A DNA stretch of 64,000 nucleotides. It comes from Bdellovibrionales bacterium. Lineage in GTDB: Bacteria; Bdellovibrionota; Bdellovibrionia; Bdellovibrionales; JAMPXM01. The notes under the pieces are model-generated. The model had not been told where the DNA came from and searched no databases. It saw only the letters and a program-made list of their open reading frames with translations. The position numbers and the translations under genes are program-made. Shown here in pieces: positions 23,847 to 64,000 of the stretch (position 1 is the first letter of the stretch; each line of letters opens with the position of its first letter). The stretch covers positions 175,206-239,205 of the forward strand of contig JADJOF010000007.1 of assembly GCA_016713885.1 (NCBI GenBank), in the 5' to 3' direction.

Positions 23847-23894
23847 TGGTCGGGGTGACAGGATTCGAACCTGCGACCTCTTGCTCCCGAAGCA
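23847..23894 (-). other. Orphan 3' half of tRNA-Pro(CGG): prophage attachment-site core
   Basis: The minus strand reads TGC-TTCGGGA-GCAAG-AGGTC-GCAGG-TTCGAAT-CCTGT-CACCCCG-A-CCA. The sequence 5' of it (ATCTATTTGATACTGCTGTCGATACC) cannot supply the CGGGGTG acceptor strand or a D arm. Confidence 0.75.
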
Positions 23895-23931
23895 TGAGGT
23901 ATCGACAGCAGTATCAAATAGATACGACCTA

Positions 23932-23951
23932 TGTCCCGCATTTGTCCCGCA
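23932..23951. promoter_or_regulatory. Tandem TGTCCCGCA x2 (11-bp phase) between att core and int: candidate integrase/RDF binding sites
   Basis: TGTCCCGCA at 23932-23940 and at 23943-23951. Confidence 0.35.
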
Positions 23952-25009: not shown

Positions 25010-25194
25010 TTGTTCGGAAACTTCTTAACAAAAGCCCGGACATCCTCAGGGTCAAAGAGGATCTTCTTTCCAGGCTTGTATGTTTTGATCTGCCCTTCGG
25101 CGACCTTCTGGTAGACCGTCGACTTTGGCATCTGCAAAAGCGCAGAGACCTCTTCGATTGAGAGATACCGCTCAAGCTGCTTCTCACCCATCAC
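25006..25194 (-). CDS. xis: Excisionase / AlpA-type HTH DNA-binding protein
   Basis: 62 aa. YLSIEEVSALLQMPKSTVYQKVAEGQI..YKPGKKILF. Overlaps the int start by 4 nt. Confidence 0.75.
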   Translation of the reverse strand: MMGEKQLERYLSIEEVSALLQMPKSTVYQKVAEGQIKTYKPGKKILFDPEDVRAFVKKFPNK

Positions 25195-31146: not shown

Positions 31147-31230
31147 TTGGCCTCCGGATTTCGGGTAAAGAATTCCCTCGCGCAGTTTTCACTGCACGGT
31201 TTTTAAGCATCTCTGTTATGGTGCGGAACT

Positions 31231-31274
31231 AACCGGCCTCTTCCTCCCGCTTCAGCGGGTGGAAAAAGCCGGTT
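31231..31274 (-). terminator. Nested GC-rich hairpin after the Cro-like gene (terminator or nut/boxB-like element)
   Basis: The minus strand reads AACCGGC-UUUUUCCA-CCCGC-UGAA-GCGGG-AGGAAGAG-GCCGGUU. Confidence 0.3.
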
Positions 31275-37821: not shown

Positions 37822-37827
37822 AATTCC

Positions 37828-38924: not shown

Positions 38925-41617
38925 CAGTCACGCCCCTTTGAAAGTCGACTATTGAGTTTCGCCACAAGCTGATTCATGGCCTTCGACCCTGGTTTCAGAT
39001 CAGACGCTAGAACCAGCATCTCTTTTGCCTTCGGGTCCTGCATGATTGAATCGCGATCGATGCCAAGCTCTGGCGAGTGTTTTGAGATGTTGTCGAATCC
39101 ATCGTTCGCCCATTTCTCACGGCCGCGCTTTGGCGGCGGTGCCTTTGACCCATCTTTGTCGGAAGGACCTGGCTTTTGGGGCTCGTCTGGATAAACGCGG
39201 TACTGAGACGGCGTGCTCGAATCCATGTCGAGCTCTGACGGTGCCGATGGACCGGCGACTTTAGGAAGCGCTGTCTCGCCAGCATGTGCTGCTGCGGCTC
39301 GTCCAGCTAGGACAGTCGATTTGAATTGTTGAATCAGCTCAATCTTTAGAGGCTCGGGAATGTCTAGGGAGCGAATCGCATTTGGCGAAATCGTTCTCAT
39401 TTTCAAAACGCCGTCCAAGACCCTTTTTGTTACGGCCGGTCCGTAGACGTCCATCATCGCGCCGGTTACAGCGCCGAACGCCATGCCGACCGGACCGCCT
39501 AAAGCAAAGCCCGCTGCGCCGCCAGCGCCGCCCTTGCCCGCCGCTGACTGTGCCAGATTCCCGATCACAGACCACAAGTTAACATTCCGAGATCCATTAA
39601 ATGCGGTCTTCGTAAATGCTGCCGCGTCACTTGCAGCGCGAACCGCCTCGACGAAATCTTGATCGGACAGATCAGAAAGATCTTGAAGAGTCTTGGTTGC
39701 GAATTTCCGACCTTGGGCGACTTGCTTTAGTTTCGACTCGGCCGACTGCTCGCCGAATCCTTTGAATTTACCCGCCAGGTCCTTTGCGGTCTTTAATTTC
39801 GCTTGTGCAGACTTCTGATTAAAGAATGCCGCACTTCGTTCGATTGATTTTTGAATCTCCCTAGGCTTTGCCAAGCGTTTCGCGGACGCCGCCTGCATTT
39901 CTGATTGCCTGAGCATCGCGTTTTCTGGGAGAGATTGTCTAATGCCTTCAAGCTTCATCGGGCTTCTCAGCGTTCGCTGTGCTCCGACCATTTCATCAAC
40001 GGTTCGCGGCAATGCGCCGCCTTGTTTTTGAGCAAGCTTCTGCAGCGTCTCGAGCTCGTACTTTGCCGACGGCTTGCCAATACTTTGAAGCCGATTGAAC
40101 CGAGCCGAATCAGCTCCGAATTGTTTCGTCGCGTTCGACAAAACTCCAGTATCATCGGCGACGGTAAGCATCTTTTCTTTGTACGCCGGATTCTGCTTTA
40201 GCTGTTCATCGAGTCCGCCTCGAATCGATTTGAATGCTCTCTGAACGTCGTTAGTGAAGAGGCGAGAATCATAGATGATCTTTTCGGCCTGATCGATTTG
40301 TTGGATTATTTGCTTTGCGTCAGCCGCGCTCATGCTTGACGGCAACTTCCCGAGCGTGTCGCGAAGCCCTCGAATTTCTGCCTGAGCAGCTCGTGCCTGC
40401 GGAGTTGATGGCGCAACGCCTGCAACATTCAAGCTCTCTTCAGCTTTTTTCAGCCCATCCCAAGTACCCTTGAAGTTGATCGGCTCTTTCTGTTGTCGCA
40501 ATATTTCGTAGGACTCGTTTGAGCCCTTTACGACCTTCTCTTTTAAGTTATCAATTGCATCGCCGATCATCGGCTCAACACGCGAAGGCGATGCTTTTTC
40601 TGTTAACACCTGCTTTTGTGAGCTGAATGATTCATCGAGAAGCGTCCGAGCTTTCTGGACCTCTTCCATCGCCTTAGCTTTACCCTCGACGCGTGAATCT
40701 TTAATGCCTGCGGCGACTTCGTCGAGTTTTGACTTCGCTGAATCGTAGCCGATTTTGGCGTTATCAAGATCGTCGCCCAGTCCATTCACGACCTTAGTCA
40801 CTTGCTCATAGAGCTCATCAAATGTGCTGGCGTTTCGAATGCGCTCTGGGTTTTGAAGGTACGAGTCAATGACCTCTTCTTTGACGCCACCGACCGCGCT
40901 CAGTATCTTCTTTGGCGCCGCCGCTGCGAGCTTTCCAGCGCCCTTTAATACTTTGCCGCCGACGTGCAAAGCGCCTGGCATCAGGGCGCCAGTGACTCCG
41001 TTGATTGCCGCATTCTTCGCGCGAGCGCCGACATCGGTAAACCCAGTTTCAGGAGTGTATGCGGTACCGAGCAGAACGCCTTCAGCACCAAGCCGTGCGC
41101 TTTGAGCCCCTATGCTTGATCCAGATGCGAATCGTGCAGCTTTCTCTAAAGCATTAACCCCTGCAGCACCTTTGATCCCTGCGCCAACTGCCTTGGACGC
41201 AGCCGATCCAGGCACGACAAAGCCAGCGAATTGACCGCCCATGGCATAGCCTGGTGCCTTTTCTTGAAGATCCTTGCCTTGCTGTCTGAATTTATTTACG
41301 CGATCAGAGAATTTCGTTTCATCTGCATCTGATCCGCTTAGCGCTTGCGATGCCATGTCCGATAGAACTTCGCCGCCTGCTTTCAAATATGGGAGCGTCC
41401 CGATTGATGCGCTCTCGGCATAGCCCTCTGTTGCCGCGCGAAGCTTGTCGCCAGCACTCGGTACCGATGGCTCCGTAGACGAATCGGTCGGCGCCCACTG
41501 GTCTTGACCAATCTTTTTATAGACCTCACCGGTTTTCGCCGTGCGCGTTACTGGCTCCCAGTGATCAGGGCCAACTTGGTGATAGAATGTCCCGTCTTTT
41601 GCCTGGCGCTCCATCAT
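38924..41617 (-). CDS. Large virion-associated protein (ejection/internal-protein or tape-measure-like), function unknown
   Basis: 897 aa, Ala/Gly/Lys-rich. Gly-rich hydrophobic segment GKGGAGGAAGFALGGPVGMAFGAVTGAMM. Sits between tail and fibre genes. Confidence 0.35.
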   Translation of the reverse strand: MMERQAKDGTFYHQVGPDHWEPVTRTAKTGEVYKKIGQDQWAPTDSSTEPSVPSAGDKLRAATEGYAESASIGTLPYLKAGGEVLSDMASQALSGSDADETKFSDRVNKFRQQGKDLQEKAPGYAMGGQFAGFVVPGSAASKAVGAGIKGAAGVNALEKAARFASGSSIGAQSARLGAEGVLLGTAYTPETGFTDVGARAKNAAINGVTGALMPGALHVGGKVLKGAGKLAAAAPKKILSAVGGVKEEVIDSYLQNPERIRNASTFDELYEQVTKVVNGLGDDLDNAKIGYDSAKSKLDEVAAGIKDSRVEGKAKAMEEVQKARTLLDESFSSQKQVLTEKASPSRVEPMIGDAIDNLKEKVVKGSNESYEILRQQKEPINFKGTWDGLKKAEESLNVAGVAPSTPQARAAQAEIRGLRDTLGKLPSSMSAADAKQIIQQIDQAEKIIYDSRLFTNDVQRAFKSIRGGLDEQLKQNPAYKEKMLTVADDTGVLSNATKQFGADSARFNRLQSIGKPSAKYELETLQKLAQKQGGALPRTVDEMVGAQRTLRSPMKLEGIRQSLPENAMLRQSEMQAASAKRLAKPREIQKSIERSAAFFNQKSAQAKLKTAKDLAGKFKGFGEQSAESKLKQVAQGRKFATKTLQDLSDLSDQDFVEAVRAASDAAAFTKTAFNGSRNVNLWSVIGNLAQSAAGKGGAGGAAGFALGGPVGMAFGAVTGAMMDVYGPAVTKRVLDGVLKMRTISPNAIRSLDIPEPLKIELIQQFKSTVLAGRAAAAHAGETALPKVAGPSAPSELDMDSSTPSQYRVYPDEPQKPGPSDKDGSKAPPPKRGREKWANDGFDNISKHSPELGIDRDSIMQDPKAKEMLVLASDLKPGSKAMNQLVAKLNSRLSKGRD

Positions 41618-42693
41618 TCAGCCCAATCAATTTCGTTTGTTTTAAAAACCTTCGGTGCAGGTGCGGCATTTGCCCTGTCAATGCCATATGCTGAGTCGTC
41701 TCCCTTTTTCATTTTGCTAATATCAACATCGGCAACGCCTACCTCTTGCGGATTGAATCCTAGAGTCCCGAGTCTGGACCTCATTTCGCTCTGCAAGTAT
41801 TCAAGTTTCTTCTTCTGAATTGCCGGGCTATCGCGCCACGTCGGTGCCATTGCCTTGAATCTCTCCTCCTCTGGTTTTGAAATTGCGCCGCCGGACTGCA
41901 TTCGACCGAGTGATTCTTCAAAGAGCGCACGTTGCTGCGTGAAGTCGTTATCTCCAATAACTGAGAATGTGTTTTGATCGTTACGAAGAAGGGCATCGGC
42001 CATGCCCTGCACGGTTTTCAATCCAAGTTTGGCGTTGTCGAAACGCTGCTTTCCTTCGGCACCAAGCCCCTGCAGTCGACCTTCCGGCGTTTTCTTGAAC
42101 GCTGCTTCTTCCTGCTTGCGCCTGTGGTCAGCCAATCGCTGATACTTCATTTCGTCCGCAAACGGATCGCCAGCGCCCTTGCGCATAGCTTCCATTTCTC
42201 TAATTTTGAGTTCTCGCTCTTTATTTTGTTGCGACATTCGATCTTGAATTGTCAGCGCACGTCCGCGAAGCGAGTTCACCAAGCCCGGATCGTATTGCAT
42301 CGGAACCTGAGAAACGTCGAGGCCCATCGTTTTCGCTTGGCCCAGAGCACTTTCCCAAGACGGCTGATCCTTAACGTCAGCCGTGAGCTGCGCGATCATC
42401 CCGGCTTGCTTGAACTGATCATCAAGCTTTGAGCGCTTATCAGCGTCGGCTTGCCGGGTGAGCTCATTCGCCTCTTTCCCGAAGCCGCCTTTCGCAAGCG
42501 CCGATGCTGTCAGAGATGGATCAAACGTCGTTTTGCCATCAGGGCCAACGACTGCTCCGGCCTTGTACGCTTCGCGCTGAGCCTCTTGATCGCGACGTTG
42601 CTTGATCATGTCGCTCATCTTCATGCCCTCTTGCCTTGCGGCGCCAAGGTCAAGACCTCTCATGTTCGAATACATTGAGTTATCGATCGGCAT
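41614..42693 (-). CDS. Virion-associated protein, unknown function
   Basis: 359 aa, charged and coiled. ATGA-coupled. Confidence 0.35.
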   Translation of the reverse strand: MPIDNSMYSNMRGLDLGAARQEGMKMSDMIKQRRDQEAQREAYKAGAVVGPDGKTTFDPSLTASALAKGGFGKEANELTRQADADKRSKLDDQFKQAGMIAQLTADVKDQPSWESALGQAKTMGLDVSQVPMQYDPGLVNSLRGRALTIQDRMSQQNKERELKIREMEAMRKGAGDPFADEMKYQRLADHRRKQEEAAFKKTPEGRLQGLGAEGKQRFDNAKLGLKTVQGMADALLRNDQNTFSVIGDNDFTQQRALFEESLGRMQSGGAISKPEEERFKAMAPTWRDSPAIQKKKLEYLQSEMRSRLGTLGFNPQEVGVADVDISKMKKGDDSAYGIDRANAAPAPKVFKTNEIDWAE

Positions 42694-42696
42694 TGC

Positions 42697-43572
42697 TTAG
42701 CCCTCCGCCATCGTTGCAAGGAAAAGCATCAAGACACGAGAAAGGTCGATCAGCTTCACACCGTCAGCGTCTTCATAGACGAGAGTTTTCCCGAGTTTTG
42801 ACTTCTCGAGGTCCTGCGCCATCACGCCGACATAGTCGCCCGATCCATGGATTGGTGACTTGTAATTGAACGAGTAGGCTTTGAGATGAGACTTCATTTC
42901 AGCCAAATCTTCTTTTGAAACCGGCTGAATGTTCGTTTTCACGCGCTCGTCACAGAAGGCCAGACTTGCAGCGCCCTGGATGAACTGTTGCCTCTGACCG
43001 GCCTGACCCATCGCCTGCGCAGCTACGGCATTTGCACCGCCTTGCACGTTCTGGCTATATGCGTTCGCATAGTTCTGCCCGGCTTGAGCAACTTGAGTGT
43101 TCGCAGTCTGTCCAACGCCGGCGATCTGCGATAGCCGTCCGAACCTGCGATCACGGTCAGCATTAAAACGGTTGTATGCGTTGTTGTATTCTTCGGACGC
43201 CATGCCCTGATTCTGGCGCATGAGTTCTTTCATGAATCGACCAGACGTTAAACCGCCGCGAGCGGCCGATGACCGCTCAAGCGCTTTACTCGCCTCATCC
43301 ATTCGAAACTGATATCCAGGGTCTTGTTGAAAGTCAGACGCTGTGAAGTCTCGCTGATAGTCAGCATCTTGAAGACCCGTGAGCGCCTTTGCTCCAGCGT
43401 CTCGCCACGGCTGAGCATCCGCGCGCTGCTGATCAAACATATAGCGCTGAGTATTGTTTGAATCGCGCACTGCACCTTGCTGAGCCGAAAGCGCCTGGTC
43501 ACTGCCAGACGAGTCGCTCAGGTTCATACCCGTTACGTCTTCAATTAATCCACCGACTCCGCCGCTACCCAT
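42697..43572 (-). CDS. Gln/Ala/Asn-rich protein with a C-terminal S74-type intramolecular-chaperone domain
   Basis: The C-terminal 85 aa start at FCDERVKTNIQPV..AYSFNYK..YVGVMAQDLE..LIDLSRV, matching the (S)DxRxKxNI autocleaving chaperone pattern. Confidence 0.55.
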   Translation of the reverse strand: MGSGGVGGLIEDVTGMNLSDSSGSDQALSAQQGAVRDSNNTQRYMFDQQRADAQPWRDAGAKALTGLQDADYQRDFTASDFQQDPGYQFRMDEASKALERSSAARGGLTSGRFMKELMRQNQGMASEEYNNAYNRFNADRDRRFGRLSQIAGVGQTANTQVAQAGQNYANAYSQNVQGGANAVAAQAMGQAGQRQQFIQGAASLAFCDERVKTNIQPVSKEDLAEMKSHLKAYSFNYKSPIHGSGDYVGVMAQDLEKSKLGKTLVYEDADGVKLIDLSRVLMLFLATMAEG

Positions 43573-43573
43573 G

Positions 43574-43927
43574 TCATTGCTCCTTTAGCTTCAGTGAAAT
43601 CAAAAGCACGTCTTGACCAGACTTCGAGACCTCAAAGCCGCATGAAATTGCAGCAATCAATGTCTTATTTGCGTTCTGGTCCCATAGATGAATATTTGCC
43701 GTCACCACGTCGCAACCATTGCCTTTGGCGATATCGACTAGGTCATTGAGTAGCTTTCGCCCGTTTCCGAGCGTTCTCTTCTCGCGATGAATGAACATCT
43801 CAGCGATGAAACATTCCTTGTTTGACATCTTGTAAGCGATGAATCCGAAATCACGCCACAGGCTCGATTGCCCCATGCGCTCGTAGATATATTGAGAGTA
43901 AAGTCTATCCTCATTGCTCATGTGCAT
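43574..43927 (-). CDS. GNAT-family N-acetyltransferase embedded in the tail module
   Basis: 117 aa. Acetyl-CoA motif A HREKRTLGNGRKLLNDLVDIAKGNG (RxxGxG). Confidence 0.6.
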   Translation of the reverse strand: MHMSNEDRLYSQYIYERMGQSSLWRDFGFIAYKMSNKECFIAEMFIHREKRTLGNGRKLLNDLVDIAKGNGCDVVTANIHLWDQNANKTLIAAISCGFEVSKSGQDVLLISLKLKEQ

Positions 43928-44259
43928 TCTCGTCCTGACATTCTGATGATGACCGCACTGGAAAGACTGACCTCGACATTCACAATGTCACCAGCGGCTA
44001 AGATCTGATTCTGCATTTGAGTGATGTCTTTGGTTTCGGCGGCCGTGATCGAGAGCGTTTTCACTATCTTGTTTGAACCGCCGTAAGAGCCGCCGCTTGG
44101 AATGATATGAATCGATATCGTTTGCGCGCTCGCATCGGTATTCGTTGCCGTGAACTTATCGATGATCGTTCGAGTTGACGCTGGCGCCGTGTATTCGGTC
44201 TGCTGTGCGTTCGCCGCGTACTTTGCGTTGATTAGTACCTTTGCCGTGACTGCCATCAA
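43918..44259 (-). CDS. Hypothetical structural protein
   Basis: 113 aa, beta-rich composition, in the tail module. Confidence 0.4.
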   Translation of the reverse strand: MMAVTAKVLINAKYAANAQQTEYTAPASTRTIIDKFTATNTDASAQTISIHIIPSGGSYGGSNKIVKTLSITAAETKDITQMQNQILAAGDIVNVEVSLSSAVIIRMSGRECT

Positions 44260-44555
44260 AGCACCGGGCCTTGGTTAAGATCATTGATCTGAGTCGTGTG
44301 AGTTGAAATGGTCGTGCCTTGGCTTGTCGTGAGTAGCTGAAGTGCTGCGATGTCTGATTCAGTCGCAGTCACTCGCGCCTCAACTGCCGCAAGTTCAAGA
44401 GCCGGAAGATCAGCAAGCTCAGTGTTTGAGAGTGCTGACGTGCCGCCAATTCTTAAAAAGAATTGCTTAAACCACGCAGTCCACGCAGGAGCGAGATAGC
44501 CTTTGGCGTCGAGCACTGGCGCTTTGTATGGAACCGGAGGGAGAACGACTGCCAT
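44256..44555 (-). CDS. Small tail-associated protein
   Basis: 99 aa. The N-terminal PAWTAWFKQFFLRIGG motif resembles adaptor-binding N-termini of podovirus fibre proteins. Confidence 0.35.
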   Translation of the reverse strand: MAVVLPPVPYKAPVLDAKGYLAPAWTAWFKQFFLRIGGTSALSNTELADLPALELAAVEARVTATESDIAALQLLTTSQGTTISTHTTQINDLNQGPVL

Positions 44556-45985
44556 CAGGCGCCTCCAGGTACGGCGTTTATTTCAGCGCCAATGAGAATG
44601 ACCTTCACAGGATCAGTGATCGTGACGCTATAGACGCGGTCTCGGGACATCCCGAGCCTTCTCCACAGCGCGCGGATCTTCCTTTGACCGATACGGCCGC
44701 AATCAACCCACTTCTCGTTTGACCAAACGTGACCGCCGTCGTCTGAAAACTTCATCATGACTTGCGGGTCAATGCCCTGGCCTGAGCCATCGAGACCGAC
44801 GCCGACTTCCATATCGAGTTGAAAGCTATTGTGGCGAACGAGCTTAAGGCCCGATGTCGCATGAGGCGCAATTCTAGTCCGCGAGATCTCATCGCCCGCA
44901 TCGGAGTAAACAGAACTCGACATCGAGTAGAGCTTGCCGTTTGCATAATCGCCCACAATATGCGTCGAATATGCATAAGCGTGACACTGGGCGCGATGGC
45001 GTTCAAAGACGCCTTCGTTTGTATAGACGCGCTCATGCCACATACCGGTTGATGAATCAAAAACCCACGTAGTCGAAGCGTTCGGGCAATTCAGAACATA
45101 GAAAAAATGACCATTTTCCTGATATGTAAACGCGCAAGCTGTTGAAATGTCACCGTACCCGCGAAGCGCTTCTTCAACTGCGTGCGTTGAAACCCGCTGC
45201 GGCTGATAGCCCGTTGCCATGTAGACGATGCCAGCACCGCGCTCATCTTGGCCAAGCCAGAAAACAGTGTTATTCATCTTTGCAACAGAGAATGCGGCAG
45301 CGCACCCATGCTCGATGAACGCACCTTGAACGCGCTCAAAAGGAAAGTCAGCATTGCCGGAGTTGAAAAAGACCTCTGTCGTTTTCGCGTTAAAGATCCA
45401 AAGATCGCGGTGATCTGACATCACGGCCACGACGTTGTCTGGATTCCCCTCGCTCGTTGCGATGTCGAGCGCATCGAATGCCGTTGAGTTAAGGCCAGAG
45501 ATGAAAAACCGGCCAGTGTCAGGCTCATTGAAAATGAAATAGCCATCTTGGAATGTGACCTGATCAGCGCCTGGGAAATCGACGTCTACGATTTCAGCGA
45601 AGGCATCGGTCGCAAGCGTCACGACATAACCGTCAGTGCCATCAACCATGCAAAGATGCGTGCCGTTGTCGGCCATTGAGACAGGACCAGTTGATGAATT
45701 GAGCGTGCCTAATTCAGTCGCAGACCAAGCCGATGAGACCTTGTAGCACTTCGCCCCGTAGACCGCGTAAAGGATGCCGTTTGTCGCAGTCCACATCCCA
45801 CGACACACACTCGCGGCCATTGTCGCAAGCGTTGAGAGCCCAGGCGTACCGATCAGGTAGGCGACTTCGCGCTCTTTGCCGGTGCCGAGCTCGTTCATTT
45901 CAGGATACAAGTTAATGCAGCGCTGACAGTCGACGTTGACTGATTTCAGCGTGTAACTTGGACCAATGAAACCAGCGAACCGCAT
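44555..45985 (-). CDS. Phage stabilisation protein (P22 gp10-like)
   Basis: 476 aa. N-terminus MRFAGFIGPSYTLKSVNVDCQRCINLYPE. Size and position after the coat/adaptor genes fit. Confidence 0.5.
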   Translation of the reverse strand: MRFAGFIGPSYTLKSVNVDCQRCINLYPEMNELGTGKEREVAYLIGTPGLSTLATMAASVCRGMWTATNGILYAVYGAKCYKVSSAWSATELGTLNSSTGPVSMADNGTHLCMVDGTDGYVVTLATDAFAEIVDVDFPGADQVTFQDGYFIFNEPDTGRFFISGLNSTAFDALDIATSEGNPDNVVAVMSDHRDLWIFNAKTTEVFFNSGNADFPFERVQGAFIEHGCAAAFSVAKMNNTVFWLGQDERGAGIVYMATGYQPQRVSTHAVEEALRGYGDISTACAFTYQENGHFFYVLNCPNASTTWVFDSSTGMWHERVYTNEGVFERHRAQCHAYAYSTHIVGDYANGKLYSMSSSVYSDAGDEISRTRIAPHATSGLKLVRHNSFQLDMEVGVGLDGSGQGIDPQVMMKFSDDGGHVWSNEKWVDCGRIGQRKIRALWRRLGMSRDRVYSVTITDPVKVILIGAEINAVPGGA

Positions 45986-45990
45986 CGGAT

Positions 45991-46689
45991 CTATTCTCCG
46001 GTTAAGATGTTGAAGCTAACGCCACGACTCAAAAGTGCTGAGTCACAGCCAATAAATTCAGGTTGGACGTTCTTTCGTTTGATTGAGGCTTTCGAGTCTG
46101 TCGCGATCGTTGCGACTTCGGCCGTGATCGACTGACCGAAATCAGGCGCCAAGCGGATTGCGAGGTTGAAAACAAGCGCCTCCTCGTATCCTGGAAGGAA
46201 AGCAAGATCAGTCGACGCACTTGTGAATGTCGTGAGCCGTTTTTCTGAATACAGAACAAGCGTCACCGAGCCAGAAGGCACTGGTGAGAAATAGATCGTG
46301 CCGGTTGGATTGCCGTCCTCGAAATAGATCTTTGTCAGCAGGCTTGAGGTCGAATCCTTATTTGAAACTGCGGCCCATTGATCAGCCGTTAAGACCTCGA
46401 CAGGCGTTTCATTGCCTGATGCGTCCATTGTTGCGGCCGCATGAATCCTGACAGGGCGAGCCGTGTTGAAGTTACCGCCAACGCCAATTGTGCGCGAAGC
46501 TTGCGCGGCCGTGATCGAGAACTCTTCTCTGACTCTGACCGGAACAGTGAGACCCTCAATCGACCAAGAGTCGAGCATCATGTTGAGCGCAGAGATCCCG
46601 TCTTGAATCTCTTCAGCCGATGGCGTCTCGCCTGTCGCAATGGCGCCAATCTTTCGCATCGAGCTCTTGATCAGGTCTCTGGCTGTCAT
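45991..46689 (-). CDS. Head-to-tail adaptor-like protein (gp4-like position)
   Basis: 232 aa. Called from synteny only. Confidence 0.3.
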   Translation of the reverse strand: MTARDLIKSSMRKIGAIATGETPSAEEIQDGISALNMMLDSWSIEGLTVPVRVREEFSITAAQASRTIGVGGNFNTARPVRIHAAATMDASGNETPVEVLTADQWAAVSNKDSTSSLLTKIYFEDGNPTGTIYFSPVPSGSVTLVLYSEKRLTTFTSASTDLAFLPGYEEALVFNLAIRLAPDFGQSITAEVATIATDSKASIKRKNVQPEFIGCDSALLSRGVSFNILTGE

Positions 46690-46692
46690 CGG

Positions 46693-46938
46693 TTACTTCC
46701 TTGACCGCTTGGGTTTCTTTGGCTCATCGAGATCAAGCTTGAACTCTGGCATTTCTGAAACGTCCTCGGCCTGTAGCTCTTGTGACTCGATCTGTGGCTC
46801 GACAACGGCCTGAAAGAACTTCGCAGGCGTATCAACCCAGCCGGGGCCAAGTGCCGCGAGCTCAGCAGGAGAATTGACGATCAGTCCTTCTGGACTCTTT
46901 GACTCGTGATAGATCCACGTCGGAAAGATTTGAGACAT
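46693..46938 (-). CDS. Hypothetical head-module protein
   Basis: 81 aa, acidic with a basic tail KKPKRSRK. Confidence 0.4.
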   Translation of the reverse strand: MSQIFPTWIYHESKSPEGLIVNSPAELAALGPGWVDTPAKFFQAVVEPQIESQELQAEDVSEMPEFKLDLDEPKKPKRSRK

Positions 46939-47021
46939 TGAAAACTCCAGGCAAAAGGCGGACGCGCGCGGTCACGTTTGGATCGAAGGAATCCATTCGC
47001 GCCACACGCGCCCAAAGATGA

Positions 47022-59937: not shown

Positions 59938-60833
59938 GCGCCCGCCTTTCCAAATCGAGTTTGGATTTCTTGCTTCAGCCGCGCAGCCTGTTCCGCAGAA
60001 AGTGGCGGCGGAGACTGGGCCTGGTCTGGTTGTGACGAGGATTGGGCGGGCGGCGCGTAAAGCTGAGCCCTAGGGGTGCAACGGTACTCCCCCTCCATGA
60101 CGGCAATATGCGTCCGTGGGCGAGTGAGGAAATCAAATGTCGCCAACCACTCCCGGTCGTTCTTGCCACGGCAAAACTCCGACCTCGCGATTCTGTCGAT
60201 GACATCGACCCACCTTGCTCGATCAGGCTCCTCGCAGATTCTTGCAGATGCAGCTTTCCAGCGTTCTTGTGTTTTTTTGAATCGGCCCATATCCACTAGC
60301 GGCATTGGCTTTCCCGCCACAGACTTCATCCCCGACATTCTCGCGTTCCAAAGTTGAGCGAGCTCGGGCGGCTCAAAAGTTTCTCCCGTACCCTCTTCAA
60401 AAGAATCTACTACACAACACTCCACTACACTTGGAGTGTCGGGTGACACTTCGGTAAGTGTCGGTGAAGTGTCGGGTGACACTCTAGGTACCTTTAAATT
60501 CGAGTCCATAAGACCAAGTCTCTGAAGTTTGTTGACGGCCGCCTGCTTAGCGCGGAAGCCATCCTTCGACTCGCCGTATTGAAACTCGAAGAACGTGACG
60601 AGGAAGAACTTGTCTGTATCAAATTTGATAACCTTCTCGCCAAACCACTCAGTCAGATTTGACTCTGTGACAGGAAATCCAAGATGAAAAGACATCTGAG
60701 GAAAGTCGCCGGGCCATATTCCGGCGTGATCGCACTGGTCGCAAAGATACAGAAACGCAAGCTTTGCCTTGAACGGTAGCTCACGGAACGACGGCCGCTT
60801 CCACTTGTCGGTGTCGGTGAATCGCTTAGGCAT
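59934..60833 (-). CDS. Replisome-organiser-like replication protein
   Basis: 299 aa. N-terminal FTDTDKWKRPSFRELPFKAKLAFLYLCDQCDHAGIW is typical of phage replisome-organiser N-domains. Confidence 0.45.
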   Translation of the reverse strand: MPKRFTDTDKWKRPSFRELPFKAKLAFLYLCDQCDHAGIWPGDFPQMSFHLGFPVTESNLTEWFGEKVIKFDTDKFFLVTFFEFQYGESKDGFRAKQAAVNKLQRLGLMDSNLKVPRVSPDTSPTLTEVSPDTPSVVECCVVDSFEEGTGETFEPPELAQLWNARMSGMKSVAGKPMPLVDMGRFKKTQERWKAASARICEEPDRARWVDVIDRIARSEFCRGKNDREWLATFDFLTRPRTHIAVMEGEYRCTPRAQLYAPPAQSSSQPDQAQSPPPLSAEQAARLKQEIQTRFGKAGA

Positions 60834-61623
60834 CGATCACCTCTGCCATCGAATCATTAAACTGCATGATGCCAGTCGAATTCATGACGTTTGCCGAAAT
60901 GAGATCGAGCGATAGGCCATGTTTTTCGTGGTACGTTAAAATGTCACGATGGAGTGACTGCCTATTGCAATGATACCAACGCTTTGATGCAAGACCGACG
61001 ATGCGATTTACCTGCGCAATCATCGGATTCTCGCGTTCCAGTTTCTGCCAATAGCAGATCCTTGGGATGTAGTAAAGGAATGCGTCAACAGACTGAGTCG
61101 AGGTGTCCTTCAGGTAGGTCATAACCGATTTGTCGATAGCCGAATAAATGTCTTCAACGGAGTAACGCCGGAGCATATTGCGTATGTCCGATAGATACGT
61201 GTCTGATATTTTGAATTCCGAACTTCTGAGGTTACGATTTATATAGTCAGCGATAGACTTGATAGCGTTCTCCTCGAGACCGACCATCGAGTTTCGCCAC
61301 TCTGCCATCATCGCGAGCTGTTCTTGCCTTAAGCTGATCGCCTTCATTTGATCGAGCTGCTTTTTGACGACGGTAGAGTCACTGAGAGTCCTGGCGCCCT
61401 TTCCTAGATTGCAGGAAACGCAGGAGGTGACGAGGTTTAGAACTTCGTTCTGGCCACCGGCCGCGACCGGATTGATATGATCGACGTGAAGGATTGCATC
61501 CGGCGCTGACATGCCACAATACTGGCAAGTAAAGGCATCACGTTTAAATACCTCAAAACGAAGCTTTTTCGAGATCGCCTTTCTGCTTACCTTCTTCTCA
61601 TTCTGAATCGGATCTTGTTCCAT
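60826..61623 (-). CDS. HNH endonuclease-domain protein with a C-terminal domain of unknown function
   Basis: 265 aa. FKRDAFTCQYCG..LHVDHINPVAAGGQNEVLNLVTSCVSCNLGKG. Confidence 0.7.
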   Translation of the reverse strand: MEQDPIQNEKKVSRKAISKKLRFEVFKRDAFTCQYCGMSAPDAILHVDHINPVAAGGQNEVLNLVTSCVSCNLGKGARTLSDSTVVKKQLDQMKAISLRQEQLAMMAEWRNSMVGLEENAIKSIADYINRNLRSSEFKISDTYLSDIRNMLRRYSVEDIYSAIDKSVMTYLKDTSTQSVDAFLYYIPRICYWQKLERENPMIAQVNRIVGLASKRWYHCNRQSLHRDILTYHEKHGLSLDLISANVMNSTGIMQFNDSMAEVIDA

Positions 61624-61649
61624 TACCTGCCCCCCGGCGGTGCAAAACT

Positions 61650-61670
61650 TTGTTGAGTTCTTGTTGAGTT
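61650..61670. repeat. Tandem TTGTTGAGTT x2 (11-bp period)
   Basis: 61650-61659 and 61661-61670, followed by a T7 run. Confidence 0.5.
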
Positions 61671-61740
61671 TTTTTGATATGATGACGATGAGTGGTGCGC
61701 GCGACTGCGCCCGAACAGCCTCAAAACAACACCCGAAAAG

Positions 61741-61757
61741 TTCACCAGTTTTTCACC
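61741..61757 (+). promoter_or_regulatory. Arm-type repeat TTCACCAGTTTTTCACC (copy 1)
   Basis: An identical 17-mer recurs at 61978-61994. The two copies bracket the tRNA-Arg half. Confidence 0.45.
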
Positions 61758-61890
61758 AGATACTTCTCTGTTTCGTCGTTTTTGATTGTACTTAGCTGGA
61801 CTCTCAAAATGATGGTCAAACCATTGATAGGCTTGGGTTTCAGCGGAATGATTCGGGTTCTTCGGATTTGGTGCCTTACGTCTGGAACAG

Positions 61891-61936
61891 CCTTCTAAGC
61901 AGAGGGTCGCAGATTCGAGTTCTGCCGGGGCCACCA
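61891..61936 (+). other. Orphan 3' half of tRNA-Arg(UCU): attP-like core of unit 2
   Basis: CCTTCTAA-GCAGA-GGGTC-GCAGA-TTCGAGT-TCTGC-CGGGGCC-A-CCA. The T arm is perfect. The upstream 45 nt lack the GGCCCCG acceptor strand and a D arm. Confidence 0.65.
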
Positions 61937-61977
61937 TAGCGTCAGGGCCAGTTGTCGGAAATTGAGAAAAATGGCAT

Positions 61978-61994
61978 TTCACCAGTTTTTCACC
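61978..61994 (+). promoter_or_regulatory. Arm-type repeat TTCACCAGTTTTTCACC (copy 2)
   Basis: Identical to 61741-61757. It overlaps the int2 stop codon. Confidence 0.45.
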
Positions 61995-63102
61995 CCACAC
62001 TTTCGCGTCCTGTTCCGAGGCGGAAGTGCGCCGCAACTGCGTTTAATTGCTTCTCGTCGAATCGGATGTAGTGCTTCATCGCGACCTTCATCGACATGCC
62101 TAGAGCTGAACAGACCACGACAGGGTTGAGCGCAGGATTTGAAAACGCCCGCGTCGCATAGCTCGCGCGGAAGTCATGGAATCGGCCGTCGATACCGAGC
62201 GCCTGCCTAAGCTTTGTCCACGGTTTCTTGAATCCGCCCTTGTCCATAGGGCGCTTTTCGTCCCACGCGTTCGGGAAAACATACGGGCTTTTCGGATAGT
62301 CGGCGCACTGTTTCTTCAGCGCCTCAATGACCTCGGAATGGATCGGAACCACACGACTCTGTCCGGTCTTCGTGTCTGTTTTCTTGAGCCTGATGCAGCC
62401 TGCGCCCCAGTCCATTCGGTCTTTGGCGAGCTGCGTAATTTCACTCGACCGCATGCCCATGTACTGGGCCATGATGATCCAAAGCCTGACGGCCTGTTCC
62501 GGGGCCTGGACGCCATCCTTGCCGTCGCGGAACTGCATCAACTGCTCGTCTGTGTACGACTTCCCGACGCCATCGTCCTCGTCGTACTCTGCATCAGGGT
62601 TGTAAATGTCAGGCGCACGAATGATATACCCGACAGCAAGGCACCAACTAAAGAACCCGGAAAGGTACTTCCAATGGTTCAAAAACTTGGTCGCGTCCCC
62701 TGACTTCGACTTCTCTTTGACGTGGGCCATGTACTCAACCCAAGCGTCACCCGTGATCTGATCAACGCGCATCGATCCAAAGAATGGTTTATACCATCGC
62801 TCTCCGAAGTGAATGTATTCCTTGATCGTGCGCTCACGGACCTTCGCAATGCCTCGAACCTTGCCCGTGGCCTTCGCTTCGATGAACTCTTCCCACGCGT
62901 CTTCAAAGATCTCTTTTTCACGACGCCAGTCCTCACCAAGAAGGATCGCCTTCTCGATGTCTTCAGCAAGCTTTTGCGCAACGGCAAAGTTCTTTGTGTT
63001 CAGCGCTTTCTGCACACGTTGGCCCTTGCAAGAAAACCTTGCATGGTACCACTCGCCGATGCGCTTGATGCGGCTGTCTCTGGTGTCCTGATAGTGATTC
63101 AT
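61990..63102 (-). CDS. int: Tyrosine site-specific integrase (unit 2; not similar to int of unit 1)
   Basis: 370 aa. GMRSSEITQLAKDRM, HDFRASYATRA and AMKHYIRF. Confidence 0.9.
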   Translation of the reverse strand: MNHYQDTRDSRIKRIGEWYHARFSCKGQRVQKALNTKNFAVAQKLAEDIEKAILLGEDWRREKEIFEDAWEEFIEAKATGKVRGIAKVRERTIKEYIHFGERWYKPFFGSMRVDQITGDAWVEYMAHVKEKSKSGDATKFLNHWKYLSGFFSWCLAVGYIIRAPDIYNPDAEYDEDDGVGKSYTDEQLMQFRDGKDGVQAPEQAVRLWIIMAQYMGMRSSEITQLAKDRMDWGAGCIRLKKTDTKTGQSRVVPIHSEVIEALKKQCADYPKSPYVFPNAWDEKRPMDKGGFKKPWTKLRQALGIDGRFHDFRASYATRAFSNPALNPVVVCSALGMSMKVAMKHYIRFDEKQLNAVAAHFRLGTGRESVG

Positions 63103-63311
63103 GACGCGTTCTTACGCTTGATCCATTTCCTAATTTCGTCCGGATCAAATCGACGATGCCGCCCGATCTTGATTGACGGTATCTGATTCGTCGCAACGTA
63201 GAGCTTCAATGTCGATATTGGAATCGACGTGAACTCGCGAACGTCTTCGATCAACCAAAGTCGCTCCATCTTTTGCTGTGAAATCTTTGATGATTTTCTC
63301 TCTTCCATCAC
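63099..63311 (-). CDS. xis: Excisionase / HTH_17-type DNA-binding protein (unit 2)
   Basis: 70 aa. WLIEDVREFTSIPISTLKLYVATNQIPSIKIGRHRRFDPDEI. Confidence 0.75.
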   Translation of the reverse strand: MMEERKSSKISQQKMERLWLIEDVREFTSIPISTLKLYVATNQIPSIKIGRHRRFDPDEIRKWIKRKNAS

Positions 63312-64000
63312 ACCAACTCCATGCTTAGCTGTCCTTCAAGTGGCTCATCAATAATCTCGTCACCATCCTCAACGATAGCGACTGGCTTGTTTCGATTGTG
63401 AAAGTTGACGGCTGCATCTCTAGGATTGACCGTCACCTTGAACGAGTCTCGGTCATTCGTGCCGTTCATGACTGCGTCTTCAGCGTGCGCAATCATTCTA
63501 TGAGCAAGATCAAAGTAGCTCCGCTTAAGTTCTGCACCGACAAATCGACGTCCCATTTGAACCGAAACGACGCCTTCTGATCCGATACCAGTAAACGGCG
63601 AGAACACGAGGTCATCTTTCGCCGACCACAGGTCAAGGCACCGATGAATCAGATCAAGTTGAAGTGGTGCGATGTGACGCTCGTCCTCATCTTCGCGAGC
63701 AATGCGGCCGTTGAGAGTATTTGACTGCTTGATGTCAAACCACACTGGGCTTGCATAGTGCTGCCATCTATCCACAGGGAACTCCTCAGGAGTGTGCGCG
63801 ATCGGCTTCGTATTCACGCCGGGCTTTCGGAATGTGACCACGTAGTCAGGCAGACCTTGGCGGCTCATAGATGAGTCTTTCTTGATCTGCTTCCATAGAA
63901 GTCCAAGCGCCTTTGTCCGTTGCATCGCAACGACTGGATCTTTCCAAATACACACCTCAGAGTGATAGATGAATCCACGCTTTTGAAACTCACGGATGAC
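63305..64000. repeat. Long direct repeat, partner at 25370-26065 (offset 37,935 bp)
   Basis: Colinear by eye, with about one mismatch per 15-20 nt. Homology starts abruptly at CATCACACCAACTCC and runs to the window end. Confidence 0.85.
63308..64000 (-). CDS. DNA methyltransferase C-terminal part of a second helicase-methylase gene (5' end outside window)
   Basis: 214 residues align to the C-terminus of 25373-27709 with only 4 substitutions (Y/H, I/M, S/N, D/G). Confidence 0.85.
   Translation of the reverse strand, partial: VIREFQKRGFIYHSEVCIWKDPVVAMQRTKALGLLWKQIKKDSSMSRQGLPDYVVTFRKPGVNTKPIAHTPEEFPVDRWQHYASPVWFDIKQSNTLNGRIAREDEDERHIAPLQLDLIHRCLDLWSAKDDLVFSPFTGIGSEGVVSVQMGRRFVGAELKRSYFDLAHRMIAHAEDAVMNGTNDRDSFKVTVNPRDAAVNFHNRNKPVAIVEDGDEIIDEPLEGQLSMELV

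What the first reader, a model, noticed from the sequence alone, without database searches (positions are those of the whole stretch)
61624..63311. The junction between two tandem phage units looks like an unrecombined attP with its own unrelated integrase
**Seen in the sequence**
- 61891-61936 (+) holds an anticodon loop (UCU), 3' anticodon stem, variable loop GGGTC, a perfect T arm GCAGA-TTCGAGT-TCTGC, the 3' acceptor strand CGGGGCC, and A-CCA.
- The 45 nt upstream cannot form a 5' acceptor strand or a D arm, so this is only a tRNA-Arg 3' half.
- An identical 17-mer, TTCACCAGTTTTTCACC, lies on both sides (61741-61757 and 61978-61994).
- A tandem TTGTTGAGTT x2 lies at 61650-61670.
- To the right are int2 and xis2, unrelated in sequence to int and xis at 23963-25194, then a second helicase-methylase copy.
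- To the left is phage DNA (HNH and replication genes), not host DNA.

**Established knowledge.** Phages that target tRNA genes carry the tRNA 3' segment as the attP core, with Int arm sites on both flanks. An integrated copy must have host DNA on one side of the core.

**Inference.** Unit 2 is not integrated through its own att site here. The order attL(Pro)-int1-...-attP2-int2-... is what homologous (Campbell-type) insertion of a circular relative into a resident prophage would give. Exchange of integration cassettes within a tandem lysogen would give the same order.
Basis: partly seen in the sequence, partly recalled or inferred. Interest (0 to 1): 0.72.

Follow-up and report, generated by a model that had tools for sequence, protein, structure and literature searches.

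The report
Intact phage attachment site between prophage copies
The junction is a genuine, unused phage attachment site (a copy of the last 46 bases of a tRNA-Arg gene flanked by integrase-binding repeats) with its own integrase and excisionase. This is an ordinary kind of module, and whether the two phage copies around it are really joined in one chromosome or were strung together by the metagenome assembler cannot be decided from the sequence.

Summary
Window 61690-63311 is the attP-int-xis module of a temperate phage ('phage 2').

**attP2 anatomy**
- Core: 46-nt 3' part of tRNA-Arg(UCU), 61891-61936.
- Two direct CTGGTGAA arm pairs: 61741-61759 and 61978-61995.
- IHF-consensus site: 61817-61829.
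- Then int2 and xis2.

**It is unrecombined**
- Independent phage contigs (L021/L022) are collinear with window 61599-64000 at 95%.
- More distant Int2 relatives carry the same architecture with other tRNA-Arg 3' parts.
- The T stem stays paired through compensatory changes.

- Int2/Xis2 are distant homologs of Int1/Xis1 (29% and 33% identity), not unrelated.
- The TTGTTGAGTT tandem belongs to a replication-operon leader shared with int1-type phages.

**Source.** The window comes from a 259.5-kb contig of a Bdellovibrionales MAG. It is probably from a CANU Nanopore assembly of activated sludge.

**Unit 2**
- It continues for at least 25 genes.
- Its last large genes are identical to unit 1.
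- No further duplicates exist in the MAG. Phage genes of the DnaB-type replication region sit on another contig.

**Verdict on the tandem.** A true tandem and 'integrated prophage 1 plus circular phage 2' differ by a single crossover inside at least 12.5 kb of identical sequence. Short-read contigs suggest that unit-2 DNA is in excess. The tandem lysogen is unproven. This is a known kind of module and of modest interest.

The parts
61614..61689 (-). Conserved leader or promoter region of the HNH/replication operon. It contains the TTGTTGAGTT x2 tandem (61650-61670). It is not specific to attP2.
   Evidence: 94.7% identical to the region upstream of the 251-aa/DnaB operon in the int1-type contigs L023-L025. 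The left end of the Illumina contig L001 (61632) falls inside this block.
61741..61759 (+). Distal (P) arm: two direct TTCACCAG (= CTGGTGAA) repeats, 11 bp start to start. Putative arm-type Int2 binding sites.
   Evidence: The same pair sits at the same distance from the core in L021, L017 and L027 (Int 58-97% identical). In L028 (Int 44%) a different 18-mer is repeated on both sides instead.
61817..61829 (-). IHF-consensus site TATCAATGGTTTG between the core and the distal arm.
   Evidence: One of only 2 matches to WATCAANNNNTTR in the 64-kb window on both strands. It lies in a block invariant between the window, L021 and L017. Function is inferred.
61891..61936 (+). attP2 core: the 3' 46 nt of tRNA-Arg(UCU), from 2 nt before the anticodon loop to CCA. 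The crossover is inferred to lie in the anticodon loop.
   Evidence: The L021 version is identical to the 3' 46 nt of a complete tRNA-Arg(TCT) gene in L026. The T stem is paired in 25/25 cells across 5 phages, and 3 of 5 pairs show compensatory changes.
61978..61995 (+). Int-proximal (P') arm: TTCACCAG plus TTCACCC, overlapping the int2 stop codon.
61990..63102 (-). int2, a tyrosine integrase of 370 aa.
   Evidence: PF00589, E 6e-18. The H309-x-x-R312 and Y346 motifs are present. 29% identical to Int1. The exact sequence is in Illumina contig L001. NCBI accession MBK7892862.1.
63099..63311 (-). xis2, an HTH_17 excisionase-like protein of 70 aa.
   Evidence: PF12728, E 9e-8. 33% identical to Xis1.
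63305..64000 (-). Start of unit 2: the 3' end of a second SNF2-helicase/N6-N4-methylase gene.
   Evidence: 94.4% identical to 25370-26065. 100% identical to Illumina contig L031, which extends this copy to 5.9 kb.
60826..61623 (-). HNH endonuclease gene. It is the first gene of the operon that starts next to attP2 and marks the right end of unit 1.
   Evidence: PF01844. MBK7892860.1; there is no second copy in its 90% cluster.
23847..23896 (-). tRNA-Pro(CGG) 3' fragment at the left end of unit 1. This is an attL-type junction with host DNA to the left.
   Evidence: The 118-nt block 23783-23900 is 93% identical to the attP1 core region of L023-L025 and similarity then ends. The left flank carries chromosomal genes.
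23934..23951 (+). Arm repeats of the int1 cassette: TCCCGCA x2, 11 bp apart.
   Evidence: TGCGGGA repeats are conserved in attP1 of L023/L024.
23963..25194 (-). int1 (23963-25009) and xis1 (25006-25194).
   Evidence: PF00589 and PF12728. int1 is MBK7892804.1.
34490..47010 (-). Structural-gene segment. It is identical in both units at protein level (34490-42693) and unbranched in the Illumina graph (36583-47010). This is the only place where a crossover, or an assembler switch, is needed.
   Evidence: Double accessions for the 606-, 504-, 897- and 359-aa proteins. L030 equals window 36583-47010 at 99.99%.

Best explanation
**What it is.** Window 61690-63311 is the complete, unrecombined integration module of a roughly 38-kb temperate phage ('phage 2') of an uncultured Bdellovibrionales bacterium.

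**How it works (inferred from the lambda/P4-type paradigm).**
- Int2 binds the CTGGTGAA arm repeats on both sides, probably helped by IHF at 61817-61829.
- It also binds the core, which copies tRNA-Arg(UCU) from the anticodon loop to CCA.
- It exchanges strands in the anticodon-loop region of the host tRNA-Arg(UCU) gene.
- In a lysogen the tRNA's 3' part would then be the phage copy, lying next to int2. This explains why the phage-borne T arm stays base-paired through compensatory changes.
- Xis2 would direct excision.

**Why it sits here.** In this contig the site has not been used. It lies between the last gene of one phage genome copy (HNH) and int2-xis2 of the next copy. Unit 1 starts at a tRNA-Pro attL with a distantly related cassette (int1).

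**Most likely reason for the order, though not by a wide margin.** The metagenome contig threads from integrated prophage 1 into co-resident circular or concatemeric phage-2 DNA through at least 12.5 kb of identical structural genes. It goes once round phage 2 and stops when it re-enters that segment. On this reading the tandem is an assembly path or a mixed-population consensus, not a demonstrated double lysogen.
For: **attP identity**
- tRNA-Arg 3' part without a 5' half.
- The exact 17-mer occurs only at the two flanks.
- L021/L022, independent NCBI metagenome contigs of 23.4 and 38.1 kb, are collinear with window 64000-61599 at 95.2%. They then continue into a different replication module.
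- In the 300-nt attP2, the window and L021 differ at 9 positions. Five of these fall in the 17-nt T arm and are compensatory.
- Int2 relatives at 75%, 58% and 44% identity all carry an antisense tRNA-Arg 3' part directly after int, with phage genes on both sides and no complete tRNA. T-stem pairing is 25/25 cells.
- A complete tRNA-Arg(TCT) gene matches the L021 core.

**Assembly reading**
- The source is a Bdellovibrionales MAG contig of 259,518 bp.
- Short-read contigs from SRR11674035 match the window at 100%, 99.99% and 100% (L001, L030, L031). That run is Fredericia activated sludge.
- The MAG catalogue that includes that plant was assembled with CANU 1.8 at correctedErrorRate 0.105.
- Unit 2's 606-, 504-, 897- and 359-aa proteins are identical to unit 1's (accessions 825/882, 826/883, 829/885, 830/886). 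The next seven proteins tested (831, 834, 835, 836, 840, 841, 845) have no second copy in their 90% clusters.
- Variants of the later genes (accessions 899, 905, 906, 909, 911) lie on a 70.8-kb contig. These include a DnaB-type helicase like that next to int1 in L023-L025.
- Illumina contig L031 runs 5.9 kb through 24 places where unit-1 and unit-2 31-mers differ. It matches the unit-2 copy at all 696 checkable positions, which include all 39 unit-1/unit-2 differences.
- Exact Int1, YqaJ1 and RecT1 are not listed from Logan, whereas Int2, YqaJ2 and RecT2 are. This suggests unit-2-type DNA is in excess over unit-1-type DNA.
Against: - CANU normally breaks contigs at unspanned repeats. An uninterrupted path int1 - early region 1 - shared segment - HNH - attP2 may therefore mean that at least one long read spanned it, which would indicate a real tandem molecule.
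- I could not read the contig beyond 64000, contig B, read depths or reads.
- The link between this MAG and the CANU study is inferred from exact matches to that sample's reads, not shown directly.
- Excess unit-2 DNA is also compatible with a tandem lysogen that releases phage 2.
- The argument from L031 continuity depends on how Minia pops bubbles. Only one of the 24 bubbles exceeds the limit I recall, so this is weak.
- No host tRNA-Arg(UCU) with the window's own T-arm variant was found.
Confidence: 0.5

Rival explanations
1. True tandem hetero-dilysogen. A circular phage-2 genome with attP2-int2 recombined by homologous recombination into resident prophage 1 at tRNA-Pro. The exchange could use host RecA or the phages' own YqaJ/RecT and would fall within the identical structural-gene segment. 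The result is attL(Pro)-int1-...-HNH-attP2-int2-...-DnaB-type region-attR(Pro).
For: - The order in the deposited contig is exactly this, and unit 2 is not a short remnant (at least 25 genes).
- A segment of at least 12.5 kb, identical at protein level in 34490-42693 and unbranched in the Illumina contig L030 over 36583-47010, offers an obvious crossover substrate.
- Both units encode YqaJ exonuclease and RecT.
- The single-copy HNH module next to attP2 and the DnaB-type module on contig B fit the reciprocal products of one crossover. The DnaB-type module is the type found next to int1 in L023-L025.
- CANU is conservative at unspanned repeats.
- The pathway is considered plausible for natural tandem prophages in M. 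abscessus (PMC9934374). It is classical for lambda (my own knowledge).
Against: - The second unit is not followed to an attR or to host DNA. The contig appears to stop inside sequence identical to unit 1.
- Short-read contigs carry only unit-2 alleles in the early region. This is not what equal-depth tandem copies would give.
- The source is a population-level metagenome assembly.
Confidence: 0.4
2. Phage 2 is integrated here through its own site. Either prophage 1 carried a tRNA-Arg gene or a secondary attB, or a host tRNA-Arg gene lay here, and the tRNA's 5' half has since decayed (a prophage-in-prophage or attL remnant).
For: - cmscan can force a full-length alignment in which 5 of 7 acceptor pairs form with GGTGCCT at 61870-61876.
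- Integration of phages into attB copies inside prophages is documented in E. coli (PMC8112680).
Against: - The same upstream sequence, distal arm repeats and IHF-like site are present in the free phage contigs L021/L022 and L017. Everything left of the core up to 61599 is therefore the phage's own P arm, not a target.
- The hit scores below the tRNA threshold and the D arm is absent.
- No second core copy exists in the window.
Confidence: 0.03
3. A single phage genome carries two alternative integration cassettes, or the repeat is a simple wrap-around of one circular genome (a terminal duplication artefact).
For: CANU contigs of circular genomes end in duplicated sequence. The copy spacing of 37,935 bp is close to the 38,113-bp contig L022.
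Against: - The two copies differ by 5.6% in the helicase-methylase region and have different cassettes. They are not one molecule read twice.
- Unit 1 is joined to 23.8 kb of chromosomal genes.
Confidence: 0.02

Closest known systems
attP sites of tRNA-targeting tyrosine-integrase phages and islands (lambda-type architecture; P4, P22, HP1, L5 and anticodon-loop integrators as classified by Williams 2002 - my own knowledge)
   Same: - A tyrosine recombinase with the H-x-x-R and Y motifs.
- An HTH excisionase gene directly upstream of int.
- A core identical to the 3' part of a tRNA gene, starting at the anticodon stem-loop and ending at CCA.
- Direct arm-type repeats on both sides and an IHF-consensus site.
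- The phage copy would replace the tRNA 3' part in lysogens.
   Different: - Nothing essential differs.
- In this phage group two homologous cassettes (Int1 and Int2, 29% identical) target different tRNAs (Pro-CGG and Arg-UCU). Their cores have opposite polarity relative to int.
- Recombination activity is untested.
Tandem prophages or double lysogens formed by homologous recombination of a superinfecting phage with a resident prophage (lambda int-minus dilysogens, my own knowledge; discussed as one pathway for M. abscessus prophiT36-2, PMC9934374)
   Same: Two related genome copies lie head to tail, with an intact attP at the internal junction and hybrid att sites only at the outer ends. The two phages share long identical segments.
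   Different: - Here the outer right junction is not seen, and the second copy stops inside sequence identical to the first.
- The evidence is one metagenome contig, not an isolate genome or PCR.
- For the M. abscessus case the authors favoured two integrase-mediated events at the same attB, which leave attR/attL hybrids rather than an attP.
Integration-module exchange in mosaic temperate phages (modular evolution of lambdoid phages and mycobacteriophages; my own knowledge)
   Same: - The same attP2-int2-xis2 module, with sharp boundaries at 61599-61690 and 63305, sits next to different replication modules. These are HNH/299-aa in the window, DnaB-type in L021/L022 and another type in L017.
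- The same helicase-methylase and structural genes occur with either int1 or int2.
   Different: Nothing unusual. The window would merely show both cassettes in one contig.
Prophage-in-prophage integration (attB copies inside prophages; PMC8112680)
   Same: Two phages occupy one chromosomal locus.
   Different: In that system the internal junctions are recombinant attL/attR sites with a duplicated core. Here the junction is an unrecombined attP and no second core copy is present.

Membership tests
tRNA-targeting tyrosine-integrase attP module | An adjacent tyrosine recombinase with catalytic motifs | tested here: met
   PF00589, E 6e-18. H309-x-x-R312 and Y346 are visible in the translation.
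tRNA-targeting tyrosine-integrase attP module | A core identical to the 3' part of a real tRNA gene | tested here: met
   - The 46 nt have the anticodon loop UCU, variable loop, T arm, acceptor strand and ACCA.
- The L021 variant equals the 3' 46 nt of a complete ARAGORN-called tRNA-Arg(TCT) in L026.
- No gene with the window's own T-arm variant was found in the two collections scanned.
tRNA-targeting tyrosine-integrase attP module | Arm-type repeats on both sides of the core, conserved among relatives | tested here: met
   - The exact 17-mer occurs only at 61741 and 61978.
- The motif and spacing are kept in L021, L017 and L027.
- A different repeat occupies the same positions in L028.
tRNA-targeting tyrosine-integrase attP module | A recombination directionality factor gene next to int | tested here: met
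   xis2 matches HTH_17, E 9e-8. The same gene order is seen in all relatives.
tRNA-targeting tyrosine-integrase attP module | Int-dependent attP x attB recombination | not testable with these tools
   This needs an in vivo or in vitro assay, or attL/attR junctions in a lysogen. No integrated relative with a complete tRNA next to int was recovered.
Unrecombined attP (as opposed to attL/attR) | Phage DNA on both sides and collinearity with free phage genomes across the site | tested here: met
   HNH, RusA and replication genes lie to the left and int2-xis2-methylase to the right. L021/L022 align continuously with window 64000-61599 at 95.2%.
Unrecombined attP (as opposed to attL/attR) | No tRNA 5' half joined to the core | tested here: met
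   ARAGORN finds 0 genes. Rfam at gathering threshold finds 0. The tRNA model scores 18.3 bits, below the threshold of 29.
Tandem double lysogen by homologous recombination | A second unit of full length ending in attR plus host DNA on the same molecule | tested here: inconclusive
   - Unit 2 runs at least from int2 (MBK7892862) to MBK7892886 on the same contig.
- There are no second copies of proteins 831-845.
- Later genes lie on another contig.
- The sequence beyond 64000 is not available.
Tandem double lysogen by homologous recombination | Equal copy number of the two units and the host | tested here: inconclusive
   This is an indirect test. Illumina contig L031 keeps unit-2 alleles throughout, and unit-1-specific exact proteins are absent from Logan. 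This hints at unequal depth, but no read depths are available.
Tandem double lysogen by homologous recombination | Single molecules spanning unit 1 - attP2 - unit 2 and both outer junctions | not testable with these tools
   This needs the Nanopore reads of SRR11673978.

The most novel reading that the evidence does not exclude
The contig is right. A wild, uncultured Bdellovibrionales (predatory-bacterium order) population carries a hetero-dilysogen. A tRNA-Arg-targeting phage entered a resident tRNA-Pro prophage by homologous, possibly RecT/YqaJ-driven, recombination and kept an intact attP and a second integrase inside the array. This would be a natural intermediate of integration-module exchange between mosaic phages.
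Probability: 0.38. Interest if true: 0.45.

Novelty: new member of a known kind. Interest (0 to 1): 0.27.

Why it matters
- It gives a cleanly delimited attP/int/xis module for a phage group of an uncultured Bdellovibrionales host, with comparative support for each element. It predicts the attB as tRNA-Arg(UCU).
- It shows that phage-borne tRNA 3' parts evolve under tRNA-like constraint, with compensatory T-stem changes.
- It shows one phage backbone using two distantly related cassettes with different tRNA targets.
- If the tandem were real, it would be a natural example of homologous insertion into a prophage and a plausible intermediate in cassette exchange.
- If the tandem is an assembly path, it is a useful warning. 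Long-read metagenome contigs can concatenate an integrated prophage with a co-resident circular relative.

Tried and rejected
**Attempts to extend the contig to the right all failed.**
- The genome-contig scan with HNH returned only relatives of 53% identity or less.
- Exact-protein look-ups do not index this MAG.
- Int2 has no relatives in viral contigs.
- Gene content beyond 64000 had to be inferred from NCBI accession and locus-tag numbering in cluster listings.

**Searches for the window's exact 46-nt core**
- Viral and JGI metagenome contigs gave 0 hits.
- A pattern degenerate in the T arm found one complete tRNA-Arg gene matching the L021 variant.

**Uninformative search**
- The terminase search, meant to see whether contig B carries a divergent structural module, told nothing. 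Only cluster representatives are listed.

**Readings rejected**
- A decayed full tRNA or an integrated state. The upstream sequence is the conserved P arm of free phage contigs.
- A coding function for ORF 61623-62036. Its apparent conservation in L017 comes from reading the arm repeats and the antisense tRNA.
- TTGTTGAGTT x2 as an attP2 arm site. It is shared with int1-type phages.
- A simple circular wrap-around. The copies differ by 5.6%.

**Promoter and terminator scan**
- The scan of 61400-62200 gave nothing above shuffle expectation.
Full report
**1. Observation**

The sequence at 61891-61936 (+) is CCTTCTAAG CAGA GGGTC GCAGA TTCGAGT TCTGC CGGGGCC A CCA. This is the anticodon loop (UCU), 3' anticodon stem, variable loop, T arm, 3' acceptor strand, discriminator and CCA of a tRNA-Arg.
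- ARAGORN finds no tRNA in the whole window, and Rfam at gathering threshold finds nothing.
- With permissive settings the tRNA model scores 18.3 bits (threshold 29, E 0.49) over 61870-61933. The 3' half aligns cleanly and the D arm is missing.
- Aligned against a genuine tRNA-Arg(TCT) gene (L026), the 31 nt upstream of the core match at about 8 positions.
- The 17-mer TTCACCAGTTTTTCACC occurs exactly twice in the window, at 61741 and 61978. Allowing up to 3 mismatches, 0.17 matches are expected by chance.
- TTGTTGAGTT starts at 61650 and 61661.
- 63305-64000 repeats 25370-26065 at 94.4%, with a spacing of 37,935 bp.

All listed features are therefore real.

**2. The genes**

| Feature | Coordinates (strand) | Evidence |
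|---|---|---|
| int2, tyrosine recombinase | 61990-63102 (-) | PF00589; H309-x-x-R312 and Y346 |
| xis2, HTH_17 excisionase-like | 63099-63311 (-) | |
| HNH | 60826-61623 | |
| 299-aa protein | 59934-60833 | |
| RusA | 59509-59937 | |
| int1 / xis1 | 23963-25194 | |
| SNF2-helicase/methylase fusion | 25373-27832 | |
| YqaJ, RecT | 28674-30292 | |
| Chromosomal genes with IS elements | 1-23.8 kb | |

Nearly all phage genes are on the minus strand. In the circular phage the order is ...RecT-YqaJ-helicase/methylase-xis-int-attP-HNH-replication-...-terminase-head-tail.

Only the DNA is dissimilar.

**3. attP2 is a real, conserved, unrecombined attP**

*Close relatives.* Int2 has many relatives on 35-47 kb contigs. 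L021/L022 are NCBI metagenome contigs of 23.4 and 38.1 kb whose Int falls in the same 90% cluster as Int2.
- They align continuously with window 64000-61599 at 95.2%.
- They then continue into a different replication module (66 aa, 260 aa, DnaB-type helicase) and re-join the window at RusA.
- Phage DNA therefore flanks the same site in independent assemblies.

*T-arm changes.* Within the 300-nt attP2 (61690-61989) the window and L021 differ at 9 positions.
- Five of these lie in the 17-nt T arm.
- They convert GCAGA-TTCGAGT-TCTGC to GCTGG-TTCAAGT-CCAGC, which are compensatory changes.

*More distant relatives.*
- L017 (Int 75%) carries tRNA-Arg(UCU).
- L027 (Int 58%) carries tRNA-Arg(CCG).
- L028/L029 (Int 44%) carry tRNA-Arg(UCU) with other stems.
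- All carry an antisense tRNA-Arg 3' part right after int. All have phage genes on both sides and no complete tRNA.
- Across the five versions the T stem is paired in 25/25 cells, and 3 of 5 pairs show double changes. Slid controls pair in 20-60% of cells.

*attB type.* A complete tRNA-Arg(TCT) gene whose last 46 nt equal the L021 core, with identity ending at CCA, exists in metagenome contig L026.

*Arm sites.* The CTGGTGAA pair on the distal side and the CTGGTGAA/GGGTGAA pair next to int keep their positions in the window, L021, L017 and L027. L028 has a different 18-mer (GCTGTACAAAATCCGTAC) on both sides. This is the behaviour expected of arm-type sites that co-vary with the integrase.

*IHF-like site.* A perfect IHF consensus (TATCAATGGTTTG, 61817-61829) is one of two in the window and lies in a block invariant among three phages.

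*Mechanism (inference from the lambda/P4 paradigm).* Strand exchange occurs in the anticodon loop of the host tRNA-Arg(UCU) gene. The lysogen then uses the phage-supplied 3' part. This explains why the self-contained T arm may vary only in a compensatory way. The strands that must pair with the host 5' half are unchanged among the closest relatives (the window, L021 and L017).

**4. What is not part of attP2**

The block 61614-61689, with the TTGTTGAGTT tandem and the ribosome-binding site of HNH, is 94.7% identical to the region upstream of the 251-aa/DnaB operon in the int1-type contigs L023-L025. It is a leader or control region of the replication operon.

ORF 61623-62036 looks conserved only because it reads the arm repeats and the antisense tRNA.

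**5. The int1 end**

A tRNA-Pro(CGG) 3' fragment lies at 23847-23896 (-).
- The 118-nt block 23783-23900 is 93% identical to the core region of attP1 in L023-L025. Similarity then ends on the chromosomal side.
- TGCGGGA arm repeats are conserved.
- L023-L025 are unrecombined attP1 states: int1, a 626-bp insert, arms, core, P arm, leader, 251 aa, DnaB, RusA.

The core is sense relative to int1 but antisense relative to int2.

**6. Source and what lies beyond the window**

*Source.*
- The HNH protein is MBK7892860.1 of 'MAG: Bdellovibrionales bacterium', on a 259,518-bp contig.
- Short-read contigs from SRR11674035 match the window: L001 = 61632-63334 exactly, L030 = 36583-47010 at 99.99%, and L031 = 63305-64000 exactly.
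- That run is the Illumina data set of Fredericia activated sludge.
- The MAG catalogue that includes that plant was assembled with CANU 1.8 (correctedErrorRate 0.105) and polished with Racon/medaka/Illumina-Racon.
- That this MAG belongs to that study is my inference.

*Accession order.* Accession numbers rise with window coordinate.

| Protein | Accession (MBK7892...) |
|---|---|
| int1 | 804 |
| YqaJ1 / RecT1 | 811 / 812 |
| 606 aa | 825 and 882 |
| 504 aa | 826 and 883 |
| 897 aa | 829 and 885 |
| 359 aa | 830 and 886 |
| RusA | 858 |
| 299 aa | 859 |
| HNH | 860 |
| int2 | 862 |
| YqaJ2 / RecT2 (variants) | 868 / 869 |

All of these are on the 259.5-kb contig.

*Where duplication stops.*
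- No second copy exists in the 90% clusters of proteins 831 (tail fibre), 834, 835, 836, 840, 841 (732 aa) or 845 (small terminase).
- HNH and the 299-aa protein are also single-copy.
- Variants of later genes are on a 70,836-bp contig: 899 (a 96-aa version of the 150-aa protein), 905 (HNH-AP2), 906, 909 (RusA) and 911 (DnaB-type).
- Locus tags show no unnumbered genes between 886 and 899.

*Consequence.* Unit 2 is not a short remnant. The deposited contig very probably ends inside sequence identical to unit 1. The candidate right end, a DnaB-type module like the one next to int1 in nature, is on another contig.

**7. Tandem or assembly path?**

Label the parts as follows.
- A1 and A2: the diverged early regions (L031 against unit 1 is 96.3% identical, with patches of 0% and up to 15% divergence).
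- S: the shared segment. It is identical at protein level in 34490-42693, and it is unbranched in the Illumina graph over 36583-47010.
- R_A: window 47-61.6 kb.
- R_B: the second contig.

The tandem structure is host-int1-A1-S-R_A-attP2-int2-A2-S-R_B-host. The alternative is host-int1-A1-S-R_B-host plus a circle attP2-int2-A2-S-R_A. The two have the same sequence content and differ by one crossover in S.

For the tandem:
- CANU usually breaks at unspanned repeats, so the uninterrupted A1-S-R_A path may rest on spanning reads.
- The biology is plausible. Both phages encode YqaJ/RecT, and homologous insertion into a resident prophage is a known route (PMC9934374).

For the assembly or mixed-population reading:
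- The contig stops in the second S while the first was traversed.
- L031 runs 5.9 kb through 24 k-mer bubbles without switching to unit-1 alleles. It matches the unit-2 copy at all 696 checkable positions, which include all 39 unit-1/unit-2 differences.
- Exact Int1, YqaJ1 and RecT1 are not recorded from Logan, whereas Int2, YqaJ2 and RecT2 are. This suggests an excess of phage-2-type DNA.
- Phage-2-like genomes exist as independent 38-kb contigs.

I rate the assembly reading at about 0.5 and the true tandem at about 0.4. Only reads can decide.

**8. Comparison and novelty**

- The module meets every sequence-level criterion of a tRNA-targeting tyrosine-integrase attP. Recombination itself is untested.
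- Cassette exchange on a shared backbone and tandem prophages are both known (PMC9934374; PMC8112680 for other tandem and nested configurations).
- The finding is a new member of a known kind.
- Its modest points of interest are the compensatory evolution of the phage-borne tRNA part, the opposite core polarity of two homologous cassettes, and the host lineage.

Noticed in passing
window 38570 (ORFs 37828-38682 and 38490-38924): The MAG has T4 where Illumina contig L030 has T5. This homopolymer deletion splits a 365-aa gene into two ORFs. It is a residual Nanopore error in the segment that is duplicated in the contig.
   Followed up: yes
window 25370-31243 versus L031: The early regions of the two units form a mosaic. 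Some stretches of 0.9-1.6 kb have no difference. Others reach up to 15% divergence (28.2-30.2 kb, YqaJ/RecT). This is typical of recombination between related phages.
   Followed up: partly
window 23847-23896 and 61891-61936: The tRNA fragment is in the same direction as int1 but opposite to int2, although the two integrases are homologous and the arm layout is the same. In lysogens int2 would lie next to the rebuilt tRNA, and int1 would lie at the far end.
   Followed up: partly
L023 11047-11675 (also L024, L025): Int1-type phage contigs carry a 626-bp insert with a 200-aa ORF between int1 and the attP1 arm repeats. The insert is absent from the window. Their tRNA fragment reads CGT where the window reads CGG at the anticodon.
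   Followed up: no
window 61614-61689: A 76-nt leader with two ACTCAACAA repeats 11 bp apart is conserved upstream of three different replication modules (HNH/299 aa, 260 aa/DnaB, 251 aa/DnaB). It is probably an operator or promoter of that operon.
   Followed up: partly
window 61623-62036 (-): A 137-aa ORF spans attP2. It may correspond to accession MBK7892861, the only number between HNH and int2 (inferred from the numbering, not checked). Its similarity to an ORF in L017 comes from the arm repeats (GEKLV) and the antisense tRNA, so it is probably not a gene.
   Followed up: yes
window 5717-7403 and 16275-17525: The host flank carries an IS200-like Y1 transposase gene, an rve-type transposase gene and a Mutator-family transposase gene.
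   Followed up: no
window 25373-27832 and 63308-64000: Both units encode a fused SNF2-helicase / N6-N4 DNA methylase directly upstream of xis. The same fusion is present in L021-L025.
   Followed up: no
JGI contig of 77,286 bp carrying P0045 (no DNA available): A contig about twice phage length has phage genes on both sides of an Int2 relative (44% identity). It could be another tandem or concatenated case.
   Followed up: no
window 61870-61876: GGTGCCT upstream of the core can pair with 5 of 7 bases of the acceptor 3' strand. It also resembles the 5' end of the real tRNA (GGTCCCG). This is chance or a very old remnant, and it is only weakly kept in L017.
   Followed up: partly
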